Assembly: GCA_964537075.1 (NCBI GenBank) | Contig: CAZIBB010000001.1 | Span: 19,072 to 83,071, forward strand | Reading direction: 5' to 3' | Length of the DNA stretch: 64,000 bases | From: an uncultured Bdellovibrionales bacterium | GTDB taxonomy: Bacteria; Patescibacteriota; Minisyncoccia; Moranbacterales; UBA1568 | Program-made: the position numbers and the translations under genes | Shown: piece by piece, positions 15,497 to 50,690 of the stretch | Numbering within the stretch: position 1 is the stretch's first letter | How the letters are laid out: every line of letters starts with the position of its first letter | The notes under the pieces: generated by a model | Seen by the model: only the letters and a program-made list of their open reading frames with translations | What the model was told of the DNA's origin: nothing | Database searches by the model: none

Positions 15497-15690
15497 TCCA
15501 GTATGATCCTTCGGGGCTCCGCGCGAAAAGAATCGCCAGAAATTCGTGACACCCAAAAGGATAGGTGCTCCAACTGGAGGAAGTGAAACGCCTTTGGAGC
15601 ATCCATACGGCGTGTCACTGAATTTCTCGATTCTTGTCGCAGGAGAGAGTTTCTTTGGCATACTTTTCTTTGCGGACAAAGAAAAGTATG
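15497..15690. repeat. Structured about 190-nt element, copy A (candidate ncRNA or palindromic MITE)
   Basis: Matches the reverse complement of 27371..27585. It folds into a long interrupted helix (AAGAATCG/CGATTCTT, AGAAATTC/GAATTTCT, GTGACAC/GTGTCAC) plus a perfect 10-bp terminal hairpin CTTTTCTTTG-CGGA-CAAAGAAAAG. Confidence 0.6.
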
Positions 15691-15743
15691 GAGAAATATT
15701 TTAAATAATTAGTTTTGAAAAGCTCATTGCCCCAACAGAAAAT

Positions 15744-25490: not shown

Positions 25491-25532
25491 TTTTTGGAGG
25501 TCGAACCTCCATGGAGGTTCGACCTCCAAAAA
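25491..25532. repeat. REP-like palindrome, third (orphan) copy, variant GGAGGTCGAACCTCC-ATGG-AGGTTCGACCTCC
   Basis: Same GGAGG...CCTCC-ATGG-GGAGG...CCTCC architecture as the copies flanking the transposase. The loop change CTAAA to TCGAA is mirrored symmetrically in the other half. Confidence 0.85.
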
Positions 25533-26774
25533 TTACTTATACAACGGAAACTGCTTGCATAACACTCGTATATCCTTACGCAACTTGTTACGTAACTTCG
25601 CATCGCCTTTATTCTTCCAGGCGGTATCGATGATACGGGCGATTTCCTTCACTTCACGCTCTTTCATCCCGCGTGTCGTGATCGCTGGAACGCCGATACG
25701 CACCCCACTCGGATCGAGCGGCCCGCGCGGATCATCCGGAATGACATTCTTATTGATGGTGATCCCCACTTCCTCCAATATATATTCCGCTTCCTTTCCA
25801 GTGAGGCCATAGCTCTTCACCGTATCGATCACGATCATATGATTCTCCGTTCCACCGAAGAGAATATACGCGCCGCCCTTATAGAGTTCCTTTTCGAGCA
25901 CCTTCGCATTTTTCAGTGTCTGTTTCGCGTACTTCCTGAACTCTGGTTTCAATGCCTCACCGAATGCCACCGCTTTGGCCGCCACGACGTGCATGTGTGG
26001 CCCTCCCTGCGTTCCCGGGAAAATAGCCTTGTCAATCGCCCTTGCAAATTCTTTCTTGCAGAGAATCATGCCTCCACGCGGTCCGCGCAGCGTCTTGTGC
26101 GTCGTCGCTGTCACGATATCGAAGTGCGGCACCGGACTCGGCAGCGCTTTCCCGGCGATGAGTCCCGCGATATGCGCCATGTCCATCATGGTCAATGCCT
26201 TCACCTTCTTTGCAATCGCGACGAACAACGCATAATCAATCTGCCGGGTATATGAAGAGAATCCCGCGAGCATGAGCTTCGGTTTTTCTTTTCTCGCAAG
26301 CGCTTCCAATTTTTTATAATCGATGCTGCCATCAGGTTCGGTTTTGTACCGAACGAAATTATACACCTTGGCCGGCAAGGTCACCGGATGACCATGCGTC
26401 AGATGTCCGCCATGAGAGAGATCCATGCCGAGCACCGTATCGCCCGGCTGAAGGAGTGCTGCATATACAGCGAGATTCGCCTGCGCCCCCGAATGCGCCT
26501 GCACATTCGCATGTTCCGCTCCGAACAATTTCTTCACGCGATCGAGCGCGAGCGTTTCCGCGACATCCGTCCATTCCTGTCCGCCATAGTACCTTTTCCC
26601 CGGATACCCTTCGGAATATTTGTTCGTGAAGACCGTCCCGAGCGTTTCCATCACCGCCTGCGAGACATAATTCTCCGACGCGATCATTTCCAATCCTTCT
26701 TCCTGCCGTTTTTCTTCGCCCATCACCGCGGCATACACCGCCTTGTCCGCCTTCTTCAGAATATCATGCTTCAT
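25533..26774 (-). CDS. glyA: Serine hydroxymethyltransferase
   Basis: PLP site [12 protein letters not shown] and the GHLTHGH block; 413 aa. Confidence 0.9.
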
Positions 26775-26842
26775 AGAGATATTTCATTAAATGTCTGTTC
26801 AAAACATCTCAATAGTATCAATAAACAGCCATTTCAACACTA

Positions 26843-26894
26843 TTGACAAAACACGTTGAAAATAATATAATATGTGGTTCAGAATGGTTCTGAA
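26843..26894 (+). promoter_or_regulatory. Consensus sigma70-type promoter (TTGACA-17-TATAAT) with a perfect palindromic operator TTCAGAA-TGG-TTCTGAA at the predicted transcription start
   Basis: TTGACA 26843-26848, 17-nt spacer, TATAAT 26866-26871; palindrome 26878-26894. Confidence 0.6.
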
Positions 26895-26932
26895 TTTTGT
26901 ACATGAACAACCCAACTCACAAAGGAATAACC

Positions 26933-27055
26933 ATGAACTCAGAAATGTTCTCGTTCAGCGTTATGTGTTTTATCCTCCTACTGCTAGGTGGTCTCACGGC
27001 CTCGACAGTGATCAAAATGCAAAGGATCGGAGCGCCTCTACGATATTCTGTATGA
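26933..27055 (+). CDS. Small hydrophobic peptide (40 aa, 1 TM)
   Basis: MNSEMFSFSVMCFILLLLGGLTASTVIKMQRIGAPLRYSV. Shine-Dalgarno AAAGGA 8 nt upstream. Its TGA stop overlaps the next ATG (ATGA coupling). Confidence 0.45.
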   Translation: MNSEMFSFSVMCFILLLLGGLTASTVIKMQRIGAPLRYSV

Positions 27056-27273
27056 CTATTGGAGCGACTCCGTTCCTCTTGTTCATGCTCTTCGCACAGG
27101 CACTCCCGCCAATAGAAGCAACACCAGACGTCATTCGACCCATATTCAGAGTCGCCGCCGTCGGGTTCGGAGTCGTTGCGTTCACAGGTGGAATAGTAGT
27201 AGGGGCGGTTGTTTCGCACATTCTGTATGTCCATTCCCAAGCCAAGCTAGGAAGGACATACATTCCCGACTAG
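27052..27273 (+). CDS. Small hydrophobic protein (73 aa, 2 TM), translationally coupled to the upstream peptide
   Basis: MTIGATPFLLFMLFAQALPP...AAVGFGVVAFTGGIVVGAVVSHIL. The start overlaps the previous stop (gtATGA). Confidence 0.45.
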   Translation: MTIGATPFLLFMLFAQALPPIEATPDVIRPIFRVAAVGFGVVAFTGGIVVGAVVSHILYVHSQAKLGRTYIPD

Positions 27274-27282
27274 ACGCATCAG

Positions 27283-27345
27283 TCACATATGAAGCCACCA
27301 GGATACCAAGCGTAACATCGCGAAGTATCCAGGGCTTTTTTTTAT
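27283..27345 (+). terminator. Rho-independent terminator of the small-peptide unit
   Basis: Hairpin CCAGGATAC...GTATCCAGG followed by GCTTTTTTTTATTT. Confidence 0.5.
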
Positions 27346-27370
27346 TTCAAAATTCTTTTTTCAAACAACT

Positions 27371-27585
27371 TCTTTCATACTTTTCTTTGTCCGCAAAGAA
27401 AAGTAGACAAAAGAAACTCTCTCCTGCGAACAAATCGATAAATTCTTCGACACCCTTATGGAAGCCTCCAAAGGCGCTTCACTTCCTCCAGTTGGAGCTT
27501 CTGTCCTTTTTGGGTGTCGAGAATTTCTAGCGATTCTTTTCGCGCGGAGCCCACGCAGGACCAAGTTTAGAGAAAATAATAAAGG
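27371..27585. repeat. Structured about 190-nt element, copy B (inverted orientation relative to copy A)
   Basis: Reverse complement aligns with 15497..15690. Helix positions carry compensatory changes: GTGACAC/GTGTCAC in A against TCGACAC/GTGTCGA in B. Confidence 0.6.
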
Positions 27586-27608
27586 TCTATTTTAAAATCA
27601 AAGATACG

Positions 27609-28553
27609 CTATTTTTCTTTCAAAAACTCTTCGAGTGCTTCCGTGTAAGGACGGAAGGGAATGAATTTCGTATTGCGGAGTGTCGAACAATGTGGCCTTT
27701 TGGCAGGCCTTGGGAAAGCATCAGATGAAACAGGCTTCACGATGATATCTTTTCTAGCAATCCGAAAGAGCTCCTTCGCTGCCTCATACCAGGTCGCCGG
27801 GTTCTCATTGACCAAGTGATAGATACCATACGGTACGCCATGCTGTATCATCACCTTGGTCGCCAGGGCGAGATCCGGTGCATAGGTGAAACAGGAGCGT
27901 TCATCATCGACTGCAGTTATTTCTTTTTTCCCCTCAGATACTTCAAGCATCTTCTCAAAAAAACTTTTCTTCCCTACAAGCGAAGCCGCTGGTTTTCCAA
28001 AGAGTTTGGAGAGTCGAATGATATAATATTTTTCAGCGCATTCCGCCACAGCTTTTTCTCCCGCAAGCTTACTTTCTCCATATTTCGAAATCGGATTCGG
28101 TTCGGCATCCTCGACATATCCTTCTTCATTCGTTCCATCGAACACATAGTCCGACGAATAATGAAACAATGTCGCATTTATTTCCTTCGAGAGCTCCGCG
28201 AGGAATTTCGGCACTTCCGCATTCAGCATCATCGCTTTTGCATATTCTTCAATATTCTCTTCGCATTGATCGACAGCATTGTATGCCACGGCATTGATGA
28301 TAATGTCCGGTACATACTCTCGAACCTTTTTCTCCGCCAAAGTGAAATCCGTGATATCAACCCGGCACCTATTGTCTTCTTCTGATTTTGTAACCAAATT
28401 TTTAGGAACACCATTTTCAGACCCACATACAATAGGCGCTGGGTAAATATCCTCCCGATCCCACCCCATCGTTTCATATCCGGGATCTTCGGAGTACACC
28501 CGGACCAATTCCTGCCCGAGCATCCCCTTCGCTCCTAATATCAAAACTTTCAT
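27609..28553 (-). CDS. rfbD: dTDP-4-dehydrorhamnose reductase (RmlD)
   Basis: Rossmann MKVLILGAKGMLGQ, ...INAVAYNAVDQCEE, YxxxK; 314 aa. Confidence 0.8.
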   Translation of the reverse strand: MKVLILGAKGMLGQELVRVYSEDPGYETMGWDREDIYPAPIVCGSENGVPKNLVTKSEEDNRCRVDITDFTLAEKKVREYVPDIIINAVAYNAVDQCEENIEEYAKAMMLNAEVPKFLAELSKEINATLFHYSSDYVFDGTNEEGYVEDAEPNPISKYGESKLAGEKAVAECAEKYYIIRLSKLFGKPAASLVGKKSFFEKMLEVSEGKKEITAVDDERSCFTYAPDLALATKVMIQHGVPYGIYHLVNENPATWYEAAKELFRIARKDIIVKPVSSDAFPRPAKRPHCSTLRNTKFIPFRPYTEALEEFLKEK

Positions 28554-37904: not shown

Positions 37905-38111
37905 ATTCGTAACTTATAACAAACGACTGACAACCAACGACCAGAAAATACATAAACTAAAAACTGTCGCTGTATTGTTGTAAGTTGTATGTCGTATGTC
38001 GTCAGTTTTTATAGTTTCCCCACTTCTCACCACTTTTAGTGTGAGTAGCTCCATTTTACTCCACTTATAATACAAGCGTCAACATCTCGCCCCACCAAAG
38101 TTATCCACCGT

Positions 38112-38150
38112 CAGGAAAAACAAAAAACGGCTTATAATAACCGTTTTTAT
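38112..38150 (-). terminator. Rho-independent terminator (reads as hairpin plus T-run on the minus strand)
   Basis: AAAACGG-CTTATAATAA-CCGTTTT with an A-run before and a T-run after. Bidirectional in principle. Confidence 0.55.
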
Positions 38151-38302
38151 AAATATCCAGATTTTTCTCCTTCAAATAAATTCTTCAGCGTGACTTTACG
38201 ATCAAAAGCATGGTCTTTTTTGCTTTTAAAAAAAGTTTTGAGCGTAATGTCAGTTCAGTTTCGCTGGAAACCGAACGGCGATGGAAAATTTATTTGAAGG
38301 AT

Positions 38303-38535
38303 GATAAATGGTATTAACCCCAAAGCAAGCTCTTGACACTGAAATGAACAAAAGTTCATTTCATTTCCGCGTCCCGTCTCGCCGACGAGGTAGACAAGCC
38401 GCGGGGTATTTACCCTGTGTTACCCGCCTCGCGTCGATGAGTCCGTGAGTCGAGGCGGGCCGTCACTCTCCGTCAGCTGACGGACGAAAGTAAAAGTAAG
38501 AACTTTTAGCCTTACTCACTCACTCGGTAATAAAT
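38303..38535. ncRNA. Candidate structured RNA, family S2 copy 1 (orientation unresolved)
   Basis: Shares the 5' block ATAAATGGTATTAACCCC and GGTATTTACCC/GTTACC/CGTCACTC/ACTCACTC..GGTAATAA blocks with 43965..44126. Three hairpins carry compensatory substitutions between copies, and copy 1 has extra hairpin insertions (GCCTCG...CGAGGC, CCGTCAG-CTGACGG). TGGTATTAA resembles an extended -10. Confidence 0.5.
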
Positions 38536-38592
38536 TTTCCATCCTATATGGTAATCTCCCCCATGGGAAGCATCGCTCAAAATTCATGTCAT

Positions 38593-48864: not shown

Positions 48865-50547
<1,683 letters not shown>

Positions 50548-50597
50548 TCAAAATGATTTCCCGTTTATTGTTTCCTGTTAATGGTTATCTGATTTGT

Positions 50598-50624
50598 TTA
50601 GCACTCTCTATTATAGACTGCTAA
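50598..50624. promoter_or_regulatory. CIRCE operator upstream of groEL
   Basis: TTAGCACTC-TCTATTATA-GACTGCTAA. Confidence 0.75.
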
Positions 50625-50690
50625 ACAAAGATGTCAACTTCCGGCGATTCCGACAAAAGCAGCTCATCCGTCCTGAAAAAATACTCCTGT

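What the first reader, a model, noticed from the sequence alone, without database searches (positions are those of the whole stretch)
26843..27345. Self-contained plus-strand mini-operon: consensus promoter, palindromic operator, two translationally coupled small hydrophobic ORFs, terminator
It is the only plus-strand transcription unit in the first 52 kb. It has a textbook TTGACA-17-TATAAT promoter. A perfect 7-3-7 palindrome TTCAGAATGGTTCTGAA sits at the predicted transcription start, consistent with an operator. ORF1 is 40 aa with one TM helix and an AAAGGA Shine-Dalgarno. Its TGA stop overlaps the ATG of ORF2 (73 aa, two TM helices; the GTATGACT overlap means coupling). A hairpin plus T-run terminator follows. 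No regulator is encoded nearby. The layout fits a membrane-active two-peptide system: toxin/immunity, a holin-like pair, or a small membrane regulator complex. It sits between glyA and rmlD, splitting the dTDP-rhamnose genes, and is followed by structured repeat B, suggesting acquisition by insertion.
Basis: partly seen in the sequence, partly recalled or inferred. Interest (0 to 1): 0.7.

Follow-up and report, generated by a model that had tools for sequence, protein, structure and literature searches.

The report
Frameshift-split orphan membrane gene in conserved cassette
The "two coupled small ORFs" are the two halves of one 113-residue, three-helix membrane-protein gene broken by a single-base deletion. 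It sits in a strongly promoted expression cassette that relatives of this Moranbacteria-type bacterium keep between glyA and rmlD but fill with different small membrane-protein genes.

Summary
These are a 12/12 TTGACA-17-TATAAT promoter, a 7-3-7 palindrome just after it, ORF1 (40 aa) and ORF2 (73 aa) overlapping in ATGA, and a hairpin plus T8 terminator.

The reading changes in three ways.
1. A related metagenome contig (L083) carries the same unit as one intact 115-aa ORF. The window differs by a 1-nt deletion near 27017-27020, found in three other assemblies. ORF1 and ORF2 are therefore a frameshift-split three-TM gene. The ATG and TGA of the overlap are specific to this lineage. The protein is an orphan: two members among 1.84 billion representatives, and no Pfam, NCBIfam, PHROGs or PADLOC hit.
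2. The promoter, palindrome, leader and terminator are conserved in other Moraniibacteriota, mostly between glyA and rmlD. There they drive unrelated cargo: a single-pass "family X" protein, other small TM proteins, or nothing (L033).
3. The palindrome keeps pairing in 7 lineages through G·U and double changes, with a 4-5 nt spacer. That favours a 5'-terminal mRNA stem-loop over a repressor operator.

Whether the split gene still works by ATGA reinitiation or is decaying is open. Function is unknown. Interest is modest.

The parts
26843..26871 (+). Sigma-70-type promoter: TTGACA (26843-26848), 17-nt spacer, TATAAT (26866-26871). The transcription start is predicted at about 26876-26878.
   Evidence: Scores 12/12 and is one of two perfect sites in the window. 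Both hexamers and the spacing are conserved in L083, L004, L024, L033, L088, L090 and L161. L003 and L092 have CATAAT; L005 has TTGACT and TAAAAT.
26878..26894 (+). Inverted repeat TTCAGAA-TGG-TTCTGAA. The conserved core is 6-bp arms TTCAGA/TCTGAA with a 4-5 nt spacer. It is most likely a stem-loop at the extreme 5' end of the mRNA; an operator is the alternative.
   Evidence: Located (-4.5 kcal/mol on its own). Present in 7 lineages with 42/42 cells paired under RNA rules, 3 G·U cells and 2 doubly compensated pairs. L161 has TTCAGA-GAAA-TCTGAA. L033 has an unrelated 6-bp hairpin at the same place. The repeat is absent in L024/L086 and L088.
26895..26932 (+). Leader: a TTTT run, the conserved AACAACC motif (26906-26912) and the Shine-Dalgarno AAAGGA (26921-26926).
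   Evidence: Alignment A3. The leader is not significantly structured (z +0.2).
26933..27273 (+). Ancestral single CDS for a 113-aa three-TM protein. In this genome it is interrupted by a 1-nt deletion.
   Evidence: The repaired translation is 69% identical over its full length to the intact 115-aa ORF P0002 of L083. The other indels are multiples of 3. Substitutions by codon position are 29/12/27, and dN/dS is 0.55. AF2 and hydropathy both give three helices.
26933..27055 (+). ORF1 (40 aa): the genuine start, TM1, and then 12 out-of-frame residues (MQRIGAPLRYSV) before a TGA stop.
   Evidence: The SD and ATG are conserved with L083. dN/dS of this part is 0.23.
27017..27020 (+). Frameshift site: one base is missing relative to L083 (ATC AAA AT- GCA AAG against ATT CAA ATA TCG AAA). 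The downstream frame is -1.
   Evidence: It is the only gap in alignment A1 that is not a multiple of 3. The sequence is identical in L001, L084 and L085. There is no X XXY YYZ slippery heptamer (read).
27052..27273 (+). ORF2 (73 aa): a truncated TM2, the conserved loop and TM3. Its ATG overlaps the ORF1 stop as ATGA (27052-27055), and it has no SD of its own.
   Evidence: ATG ACT in the window corresponds to ATC GTT in L083. The nearest GGAG (27029-27032) ends 19 nt upstream of the ATG (read).
26872..27273 (+). The 133-aa (or 129-aa) ORF that gene callers report here. It is an annotation artefact: an out-of-frame N-terminus joined to ORF2.
   Evidence: Its ATG (26872) lies upstream of the predicted transcription start. 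Its first 56-60 residues have no counterpart in P0002.
27291..27343 (+). Intrinsic terminator: a two-tier hairpin (outer stem GGATAC/GTATCC, inner stem GCG/CGC) followed by T8.
   Evidence: -22.9 kcal/mol, z -4.6. The region is 92% identical to the terminator behind the unrelated 139-aa gene of L003. It is conserved in L083, L004, L005 and L161, with compensated inner and outer stem pairs.
27346..27566 (.). Adjacent multicopy structured repeat ('repeat B'). It is not part of the unit; it is inserted between the cassette terminator and the 3' end of rmlD.
   Evidence: A second copy lies at 15504-15720 (84% identical, inverted). A copy in L003 is 85% identical and inverted relative to its flanks. 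z is -5.1. It is absent in L161. Contigs from three assemblies break inside it.

Best explanation
This is one monocistronic, strongly expressed transcription unit, and its single gene has been broken.

How the unit is built (shown):
- A consensus sigma-70 promoter at 26843-26871.
- A conserved 6-7 bp inverted repeat at 26878-26894.
- A conserved leader with a Shine-Dalgarno sequence.
- A gene for a three-pass membrane protein of about 113 aa, which has no detectable relatives outside two sister lineages.
- A conserved two-tier intrinsic terminator at 27291-27343.

Inferred: transcription starts at about 26876-26878, so the inverted repeat folds into a stem-loop at the very 5' end of the mRNA. 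Its most likely role is mRNA stability or expression, not repressor binding.

What happened in this genome (shown): a 1-nt deletion at about 27017-27020 shifts the frame. Translation from the genuine start now yields a 40-aa product, TM1 plus 12 foreign residues, ending at TGA 27053-27055. The rest of the gene (part of TM2, the conserved loop and TM3) can be translated only by reinitiation at a lineage-specific ATG that overlaps that stop (ATGA).

The wider setting (shown): the unit is the local version of a cassette that many Moraniibacteriota carry between glyA and rmlD, on the opposite strand. The cassette keeps its promoter, 5' hairpin and terminator. Its cargo varies: a small polytopic membrane protein and/or a single-pass, two-cysteine 'family X' protein, or nothing at all.

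My lean (inferred): the cargo is dispensable and eroding. I put the window's gene at about 50% decaying, with only the ORF1 stub reliably made, and about 35% a still-working two-piece membrane protein. The biochemical role of the protein is unknown. The strong promoter, the membrane topology and the position among the dTDP-rhamnose and cell-envelope genes point to an abundant envelope component.
For: Single gene split by a frameshift:
- P0002 (115 aa, L083) equals the ORF1 homologue fused in frame to the ORF2 homologue.
- The DNA alignment shows exactly one 1-nt gap in the window. The other two indels within the gene are 3 nt each.
- The repaired protein is 69% identical to P0002 over its full length.
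- The frameshift is identical in L001, L084 and L085.
- The ATG and TGA of the overlap are substitutions relative to L083.

The sequence is coding:
- Substitutions by codon position are 29/12/27 (chi-square about 7.6, p about 0.02, computed).
- dN/dS is 0.55 overall and 0.23 in the ORF1 part.
- The SD and ATG are conserved.
- Hydropathy and AF2 both predict three helices.

The protein is an orphan:
- An exhaustive HMMER search of 1.84 billion representatives returns only P0002 and P0001.
- Word-index searches find the same two.
- There are no hits above the curated cut-offs in Pfam, and none at all in NCBIfam, PHROGs or PADLOC.

The cassette is conserved:
- The same promoter, palindrome, leader and terminator flank a 139-aa gene in L003 and a 129-aa gene in L004.
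- The layout glyA | cassette | rmlD recurs in L005, L024, L086-L092 and L161.
- L033 has an empty cassette.
- No trace of family X appears in any reading frame of the window's unit.

The hairpin acts as RNA: all cells pair under RNA rules, with 3 G·U cells, 2 double compensations and a variable spacer.

The terminator is real.
Against: - Only one intact homologue (L083) exists. The direction of change, intact to broken, rests on parsimony.
- The four assemblies that carry the frameshift may come from related samples.
- No transcript, transcription-start or protein data exist.
- dN/dS of the ORF2 part is 0.85 on small counts. This is compatible with relaxed constraint, but it cannot be assigned to either lineage.
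- The hairpin covariation is modest: 52 of 500 shuffles reach it. It comes mainly from L005 and L090. The hairpin is missing in L024/L086 and L088.
- A half-site centre-to-centre distance of 10-11 bp would also suit a dimeric DNA-binding protein.
- The window's protein cannot be shown to be homologous to the small TM proteins found in other cassettes.
Confidence: 0.75

Rival explanations
1. Functional two-piece protein. After the frameshift, selection fixed an ATGA stop-start overlap. ORF1 (TM1) and ORF2 (TM2'-TM3) are both made by termination-reinitiation and reassemble in the membrane. This would make a working two-peptide system, but of recent origin.
For: - The ATG and the TGA are both lineage-specific and coincide with the frameshift.
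- The ORF2 frame is still open to the native stop, 84 codons after the shift.
- The frameshift is the same in four assemblies.
- TM3 changes relative to L083 are conservative, with few second-position changes (7 of 37).
- From general knowledge: polytopic membrane proteins split within loops often reassemble.
Against: - There is no SD before ORF2.
- Ile to Met is a common conservative change and could be coincidence.
- dN/dS of the ORF2 part is 0.85.
- Cargo genes in this cassette are repeatedly lost in relatives, and L033 is empty.
- There are no expression data.
Confidence: 0.35
2. Plain pseudogene. The frameshift inactivated a dispensable gene, only the 40-aa stub is made, and the ATGA overlap is fortuitous.
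For: - Erosion of the cassette cargo is common in the clade. Family X is lost in the window, L083 and L161. The TM gene is absent in L003, L004, L088, L090 and L092. Both are lost in L033.
- dN/dS is elevated in the ORF2 part against the ORF1 part, 0.85 against 0.23.
- ORF2 has no SD.
Against: - There is no second lesion in 84 downstream codons.
- The start codon sits exactly at the new stop.
- The promoter, SD and terminator are intact.
Confidence: 0.5
3. The palindrome is a DNA operator for a dimeric repressor encoded elsewhere. It controls the cassette promoter, as CIRCE/HrcA does at groEL in this same window.
For: - It lies at +1 to +17 of a consensus promoter.
- The half-site sequences are conserved in most lineages, with a centre-to-centre distance of 10-11 bp.
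- The groEL promoter at 50637 carries a CIRCE repeat in a comparable position.
Against: - The spacer length varies between 4 and 5 nt.
- L083 and L090 carry one-arm changes that break DNA symmetry but keep G·U pairing.
- L005 changes both arms in a compensatory way.
- L033 has an unrelated hairpin at the same place.
- There is no second site in the 64-kb window, and no regulator gene nearby.
Confidence: 0.25
4. Programmed -1 ribosomal frameshift or transcriptional slippage restores a full-length 113-aa protein from the shifted gene.
For: - The shift is fixed in all assemblies of this lineage.
- The required shift is -1.
- The site lies next to an A4 run.
Against: - There is no X XXY YYZ heptamer in the zero frame: the sequence reads ATC AAA ATG CAA AGG.
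- No stimulatory structure lies within 5-9 nt. The nearest hairpin is about 40 nt downstream.
- An A4 run is too short for efficient polymerase slippage (general knowledge).
- The intact relative has no such site.
Confidence: 0.04
5. Membrane-active toxin system: a type I toxin, a holin-like pair or a toxin/immunity pair.
For: The products are small and hydrophobic, the unit is compact, and the locus is variable.
Against: - No PHROGs, PADLOC, Pfam or NCBIfam match.
- No phage DNA similarity.
- The ancestral product is a single three-TM protein.
- The consensus promoter shows no sign of antisense control.
- The cassette is chromosomal and syntenic across a clade, next to housekeeping genes.
Confidence: 0.05

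Closest known systems
5'-terminal stabilising stem-loops of bacterial mRNAs (the ompA 5' UTR in E. coli, the aprE and ermC leaders in B. subtilis); recalled from general knowledge, not tested here
   Same: A short hairpin begins within 0-2 nt of the predicted 5' end of a transcript made from a very strong promoter. The stem is kept by wobble and compensatory changes while the loop varies.
   Different: The transcription start is only predicted. The stem is short and weak (6-7 bp, -4.5 kcal/mol). The RNase complement of this candidate-phyla-radiation (CPR) bacterium is unknown. The hairpin is missing in some lineages. An operator role is not excluded.
Frameshift-split genes with stop-start overlap (ATGA termination-reinitiation coupling, as at many operon junctions such as trpB-trpA); general knowledge
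   Same: The ORF1 stop and the ORF2 start share ATGA. The downstream cistron has no SD of its own, so it would depend on ribosomes terminating ORF1.
   Different: The two cistrons are halves of one ancestral gene, not two genes of a designed operon. The coupling is untested, and the split may simply be a pseudogene.
Small hydrophobic toxins and holins (Hok, TisB and Fst type I toxins; phage holins)
   Same: Size and hydrophobicity of the ORF1 and ORF2 products.
   Different: No sequence-family match. The ancestral protein has three TM helices and is 113-115 aa long. There is no antisense RNA signal and no lysis or phage context. The chromosomal position is syntenic next to glyA and rmlD.
CIRCE/HrcA operator at the groEL promoter of the same window (50637, minus strand)
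   Same: An inverted repeat at the start of a 12/12 promoter.
   Different: CIRCE has 9-bp arms with a fixed 9-nt spacer and a known repressor. The cassette repeat has 6-7 bp arms and a variable 4-5 nt spacer, and it tolerates G·U-type asymmetry.
Cassette cargo of related Moraniibacteriota: 'family X' (129-151 aa, N-terminal anchor and two conserved Cys) and small TM proteins (L005 91 aa, L161 95 aa)
   Same: Same promoter, hairpin, leader and terminator, and the same glyA-rmlD position. L161 and the window each carry only one small three-TM gene.
   Different: No detectable sequence similarity between the window's protein and any of them. Only the L005 and L161 proteins are related to each other (E 5e-5).

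Membership tests
Sigma-70-type promoter | -35 TTGACA and -10 TATAAT hexamers separated by 16-18 nt | tested here: met
   12/12 with a 17-nt spacer. Shuffles give about 0.5 sites of 11/12 or better per strand. Conserved in 10 related loci.
Sigma-70-type promoter | Transcription actually initiates there | not testable with these tools
   No RNA data are available.
Intrinsic (Rho-independent) terminator | A stable GC-containing hairpin immediately followed by a U tract | tested here: met
   -22.9 kcal/mol, z -4.6, followed by T8. 16 consensus pairs, 6 of them with compensatory changes across 6 loci.
   ATGA at 27052-27055.
   The only homologue outside this lineage is a single 115-aa ORF covering both. 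Neither ORF1 nor ORF2 is on record as a separate gene.
Programmed -1 ribosomal frameshift | Slippery heptamer X XXY YYZ at the shift site, with a downstream stimulatory structure at 5-9 nt | tested here: not met
   The zero frame reads ATC AAA ATG CAA AGG, which contains no such heptamer. The nearest hairpin, at 27060-27076, is about 40 nt away.
Palindromic repressor operator | Symmetric half-sites at fixed spacing, conserved as DNA, and recurring at other regulated promoters | tested here: inconclusive
   Half-sites are conserved in most lineages, but the spacer is 4 or 5 nt. Three cells are G·U, which is asymmetric in DNA. L005 changes both arms. There is no second good site in the 64 kb. 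The rest of the genome is not available.
5'-terminal mRNA stem-loop | Base pairing is maintained by covariation, and the hairpin lies at the first nucleotides of the transcript | tested here: inconclusive
   42/42 cells pair, with 2 pairs changed on both sides. The shuffle control is only 52/500. The position relative to the transcription start is predicted, not measured.
Holins, type I toxins, known defence proteins | Match to a curated family model | tested here: not met
   No hits in PHROGs, PADLOC or NCBIfam, and only sub-threshold noise in Pfam. Foldseek against PDB gives nothing below E = 1, on a low-confidence model.
Protein-coding gene (as opposed to a non-coding RNA) | Codon-position bias in substitutions, indels in multiples of three, conserved SD and ATG | tested here: met
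   Substitutions by codon position are 29/12/27. There are two 3-nt indels plus the single frameshift. SD and ATG are conserved. dN/dS is 0.55.

The most novel reading that the evidence does not exclude
The glyA-rmlD cassette of Moraniibacteriota is a conserved high-expression 'slot': a fixed consensus promoter, 5' hairpin and terminator. Within it, unrelated small membrane or exported protein genes are born, exchanged and lost. Three unrelated small-TM types, family X and an empty form were seen. On this reading the window shows a lineage-restricted orphan three-TM gene that has recently been converted into a working two-subunit protein by a frameshift plus a newly evolved ATGA restart.
Probability: 0.2. 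Interest if true: 0.55.

Novelty: new member of a known kind. Interest (0 to 1): 0.33.

Why it matters
- **Annotation.** The finding corrects public annotation. The 129-aa and 133-aa ORFs called here are frame hybrids. The real gene starts at 26933 and is frameshifted.
- **Method.** A tidy "coupled two-ORF operon" seen in a single genome can be a broken gene. One related contig was enough to show it.
- **The cassette.** In an uncultured CPR clade, a fixed promoter, 5' hairpin and terminator carry interchangeable or eroding small envelope-protein genes among the rhamnose and cell-wall genes. This may be a handle on fast-evolving surface or membrane components of episymbiotic bacteria, and a small natural test case for gene splitting and reinitiation.
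- **Limit.** The function is unknown, and orphan small membrane proteins are common in such genomes, so the general significance is limited.

Tried and rejected
- **Family searches** on ORF1, ORF2, the 133-aa ORF, P0002 and the repaired protein found nothing usable in Pfam, NCBIfam, PHROGs or PADLOC.
- **Exact look-ups** of ORF1 and ORF2 as called genes returned nothing.
- **Homologue searches.** Two word-index protein searches and one exhaustive HMMER search found only P0001 and P0002. A JGI metagenome scan with the protein alignment found nothing.
- **Promoter-leader DNA pattern scan** of metagenomes. The pattern was too unspecific: 120 mostly unrelated hits. One genuine cassette, L161, was recovered by filtering for a hairpin.
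- **Rfam.** Nothing at gathering thresholds over the whole window. At E of 1 or less over 26700-27700 there was only a chance IRES hit.
- **Leader fold.** The leader is not structured beyond the hairpin.
- **Homology to other cassette proteins.** Tests against the L005, L024, L086 and L161 small TM proteins by BLASTP and hhalign were negative.
- **Overprinting.** A family X profile was searched against all six frames of the window's unit and of the whole window. The result was negative.
- **Structure.** An AlphaFold2 model of P0002 shows three helices but has pLDDT 66.6. Foldseek against PDB gave no match below E = 1. The afdb50 library was unavailable.
- **Phage DNA similarity:** none.
- **Literature:** one full-text search returned nothing relevant.
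- **L033 hairpin.** It could not be aligned by sequence with the others, so it is reported by eye only.
Full report
**1. Observation**

- TTGACA (26843-26848), a 17-nt spacer and TATAAT (26866-26871) score 12/12.
- Only one other 12/12 site exists in the 64 kb, the groEL promoter at 50637 on the minus strand. Markov shuffles give about 0.5 sites of 11/12 or better per strand.
- The palindrome TTCAGAA-TGG-TTCTGAA lies at 26878-26894 and is unique in the window.
- As a bare pattern the palindrome is not exceptional: there are 7 perfect 7-3-7 palindromes against 5.4 expected.
- ORF1 runs 26933-27055 (40 aa), preceded by AAAGGA at 26921-26926.
- ORF2 runs 27052-27273 (73 aa). The two share ATGA.
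- Hydropathy gives one hydrophobic segment in ORF1 and two in ORF2.
- The terminator hairpin (27291-27338, -22.9 kcal/mol, z -4.6) runs into a T8 tract.
- Pfam confirms glyA (25533-26774, minus strand) and rmlD (27609-28553, minus strand), with rmlA, rmlB and rmlC nearby.
- The gaps between long minus-strand ORFs from about 1.5 to 52 kb all hold further minus-strand ORFs. The unit is therefore the only evident plus-strand gene in that stretch.

**2. The two ORFs are one gene**

The ORF2 frame is open from ATG 26872. Gene callers have annotated that 133-aa or 129-aa ORF in other assemblies of the same organism: L001, L084, L085 and P0001.

The only other homologue in 5.8 billion clustered proteins is P0002. 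It is a 115-aa ORF on a 1.2-kb contig, L083, that also carries the start of glyA.

P0002 begins like ORF1 (MSSSEMFQFTVMCF...) and continues without interruption into ORF2 (...VIGTTPFLLFALFAQALPPIEATPDVIRPIFR...).

The DNA alignment shows three indels inside the gene. Two are 3 nt long. The third is a single base missing from the window at about 27017-27020 (ATC AAA AT- GCA AAG against ATT CAA ATA TCG AAA).

With one base restored, the window encodes a 113-aa protein that is 69% identical to P0002 over its full length.

The same deletion is present in L001 (ERR3094302), L084 (ERZ27247837) and L085 (ERZ27247828). It is therefore not an error of one assembly.

The ATG of ORF2 and the TGA of ORF1 both arise from ATC GTT changing to ATG ACT relative to L083.

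The nearest GGAG (27029-27032) ends 19 nt upstream of the ORF2 start, so ORF2 has no Shine-Dalgarno sequence of its own.

No X XXY YYZ heptamer occurs at the shift site, and the nearest hairpin is about 40 nt downstream. Programmed frameshifting is therefore unlikely.

**3. It is coding, and it is an orphan**

Between the window and L083, substitutions fall 29/12/27 on codon positions 1/2/3. Overall dN/dS is 0.55. It is 0.23 in the ORF1 part and 0.85 in the ORF2 part, on small counts.

glyA DNA is 86% identical between the two lineages. The small gene is 71-89% identical depending on the segment, and the promoter is 90% identical.

An exhaustive HMMER search of 1.84 billion representatives returns only P0002 and P0001.

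There are no Pfam hits above cut-off, and no NCBIfam, PHROGs or PADLOC hits at all.

AlphaFold2 without an alignment gives three long helices at low confidence (pLDDT 66.6). Foldseek against PDB finds nothing below E = 1.

**4. The unit belongs to a clade-wide cassette**

glyA relatives identify the organism as Moranbacteria/Moraniibacteriota, within Patescibacteria.

In the more distant relatives, rmlD runs straight into glyA on the same strand: L006, L007, L009, L010, L015 and L016.

In closer ones, an opposite-strand insert lies between the two genes.

Reading these inserts shows the same module as in the window: CAC-c/t-ATTGACAAAA, a 17-nt spacer, t/c-ATAAT, 4-6 nt, TTCAGA-N4-5-TCTGAA, a TTTT run, AACAACC, then SD and ATG. 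It is present in L083, L003, L092, L004, L005 (with altered arms), L090/L091 and L161.

The same two-tier terminator, GGATACC...GGTATCC followed by a T-run, closes the unit.

The cargo differs between loci:

| Locus | Cargo in the cassette |
|---|---|
| L003, L004, L088, L090, L092 | single-pass "family X" protein, 129-150 aa, with two conserved Cys |
| L005 | 91-aa three-TM protein plus family X |
| L024, L086, L087 | 81-aa TM protein plus family X |
| L161 | 95-aa three-TM protein only |
| Window, L083 | orphan three-TM protein only |
| L033 | nothing: promoter, a 6-bp hairpin, then the rmlD terminator |

Family X has 20 detectable members, all hypothetical proteins of Moraniibacteriota.

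The L005 and L161 TM proteins are homologous to each other (E 5e-5).

The window's protein is not detectably related to any of the other TM proteins or to family X in any frame.

The adjacent repeat B is a separate multicopy element.
- It has a second, inverted copy at 15504-15720.
- Its copy in L003 is inverted relative to the flanking genes.
- It is absent from L161.

**5. The palindrome**

Across seven lineages, all 42 stem cells pair under RNA rules.
- Three cells are G·U: one in L083 and two in L090. These would break DNA symmetry.
- L005 changes two pairs on both sides (TTCAGA/TCTGAA to TCTAGA/TCTAGA).
- The spacer is 4 or 5 nt and varies in sequence.

L033 has an unrelated 6-bp hairpin at the same position. 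L024/L086 and L088 lack the repeat.

With a start 5-7 nt after the -10 hexamer, the hairpin would begin 0-2 nt from the 5' end of the RNA.

I therefore favour a 5'-terminal mRNA stem-loop of the kind known to protect transcripts from 5'-end-dependent decay. That comparison comes from general knowledge and was not tested here.

The statistical support is modest (52 of 500 shuffles), so an operator remains possible at about 0.25.

The rest of the leader shows no significant structure, and Rfam has no match.

**6. What it does now**

Shown:
- The unit has intact expression signals.
- The genuine start codon now leads to a 40-aa product: TM1 plus 12 foreign residues.

Inferred: ORF2 can be made only by reinitiation at the ATGA overlap.

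Two readings remain.
- **Decay (about 0.5).** It fits the repeated loss of cargo in relatives and the higher dN/dS of the ORF2 part.
- **A working split protein (about 0.35).** It fits the coincidence of a new start codon exactly at the new stop, and the absence of further lesions over 84 codons.

The ancestral protein's role is unknown. Three observations suggest an abundant envelope component:
- the topology inferred from charge distribution (N-terminus out, C-terminus in, basic first loop and tail);
- the consensus promoter;
- the setting among dTDP-rhamnose, glycosyltransferase and MurJ-like genes.

This is inference only.

**7. Verdict**

The feature is a real but ordinary kind of thing: an orphan small membrane-protein gene, frameshift-split, inside a conserved expression cassette.

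The cassette with variable cargo and the possible restart rescue are mildly interesting. The overall interest is about 0.33.

Noticed in passing
L033:5870-6010 (minus strand of the locus): An 'empty cassette' lies between glyA and rmlD. It has a 12/12 promoter (ATTGACAAAA...TATAAT), a 6-bp hairpin CGATTG-TGTTT-CAATCG, and then a terminator that straddles the rmlD stop codon. There is no ORF, so a strong promoter would make only a transcript of about 45 nt.
   Followed up: partly
window 27346-27566; window 15504-15720; L003:2827-3026: A multicopy structured repeat of about 180-220 nt ('repeat B'). Copies are 84-85% identical. MFE is -67.9 kcal/mol with z -5.1. A long stem shows compensatory changes (TTCGACACCC/GGGTGTCGAG against AGTGACACCC/GGGTGTCACG). 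The copies sit in either orientation relative to flanking genes. Contigs from three assemblies end inside it. A 14-nt direct repeat (27339-27352 and 27612-27625) flanks the copy next to rmlD. There is no Rfam match.
   Followed up: partly
window 50590-50640 (minus strand): The only other 12/12 promoter in the window drives groEL (48865-50511). It carries a CIRCE-type inverted repeat, TTAGCAGTC-N9-GAGTGCTAA, around its -10 and start region. This implies HrcA-type heat-shock control in this CPR genome.
   Followed up: no
window 26813-26821 (minus strand): glyA appears to have its own extended -10 promoter (TG-A-TACTAT), back to back with the cassette promoter. The equivalent TGG-TA(G/C)(G/T)AT is conserved upstream of glyA in L003, L024 and L033. 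This was read by eye only.
   Followed up: no
L003:3290-3709, L004:2537-2926, L005:5051-5506, L024:5065-5502, P0003-P0022: A small clade-restricted protein family ('family X', 129-171 aa). It has an N-terminal membrane anchor, a conserved ...Y(Q/R)EQNL(E/K)xL...DL(V/I)ICV... block and two invariant cysteines. All members are annotated as hypothetical. It is the commonest cargo of the glyA-rmlD cassette.
   Followed up: partly
window 37905-38592: About 690 nt upstream of mraZ contain no ORF longer than 53 aa on either strand and have no Rfam match. This is an unusually long non-coding gap for a compact genome.
   Followed up: no
window 25495-25528: Two adjacent perfect 7-3-7 palindromes, TGGAGGTCGAACCTCCA and TGGAGGTTCGACCTCCA, lie between rmlA and glyA. 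They could be tandem hairpins or a terminator-like element.
   Followed up: no
window 27057-27150: The stretch of the gene encoding TM2 and the following loop is 89-97% identical at the DNA level to L083. This is higher than glyA (86%) and leaves very few synonymous changes (dS 0.22 against 0.98 in the ORF1 part). It suggests either an extra nucleotide-level constraint or recent recombination.
   Followed up: partly
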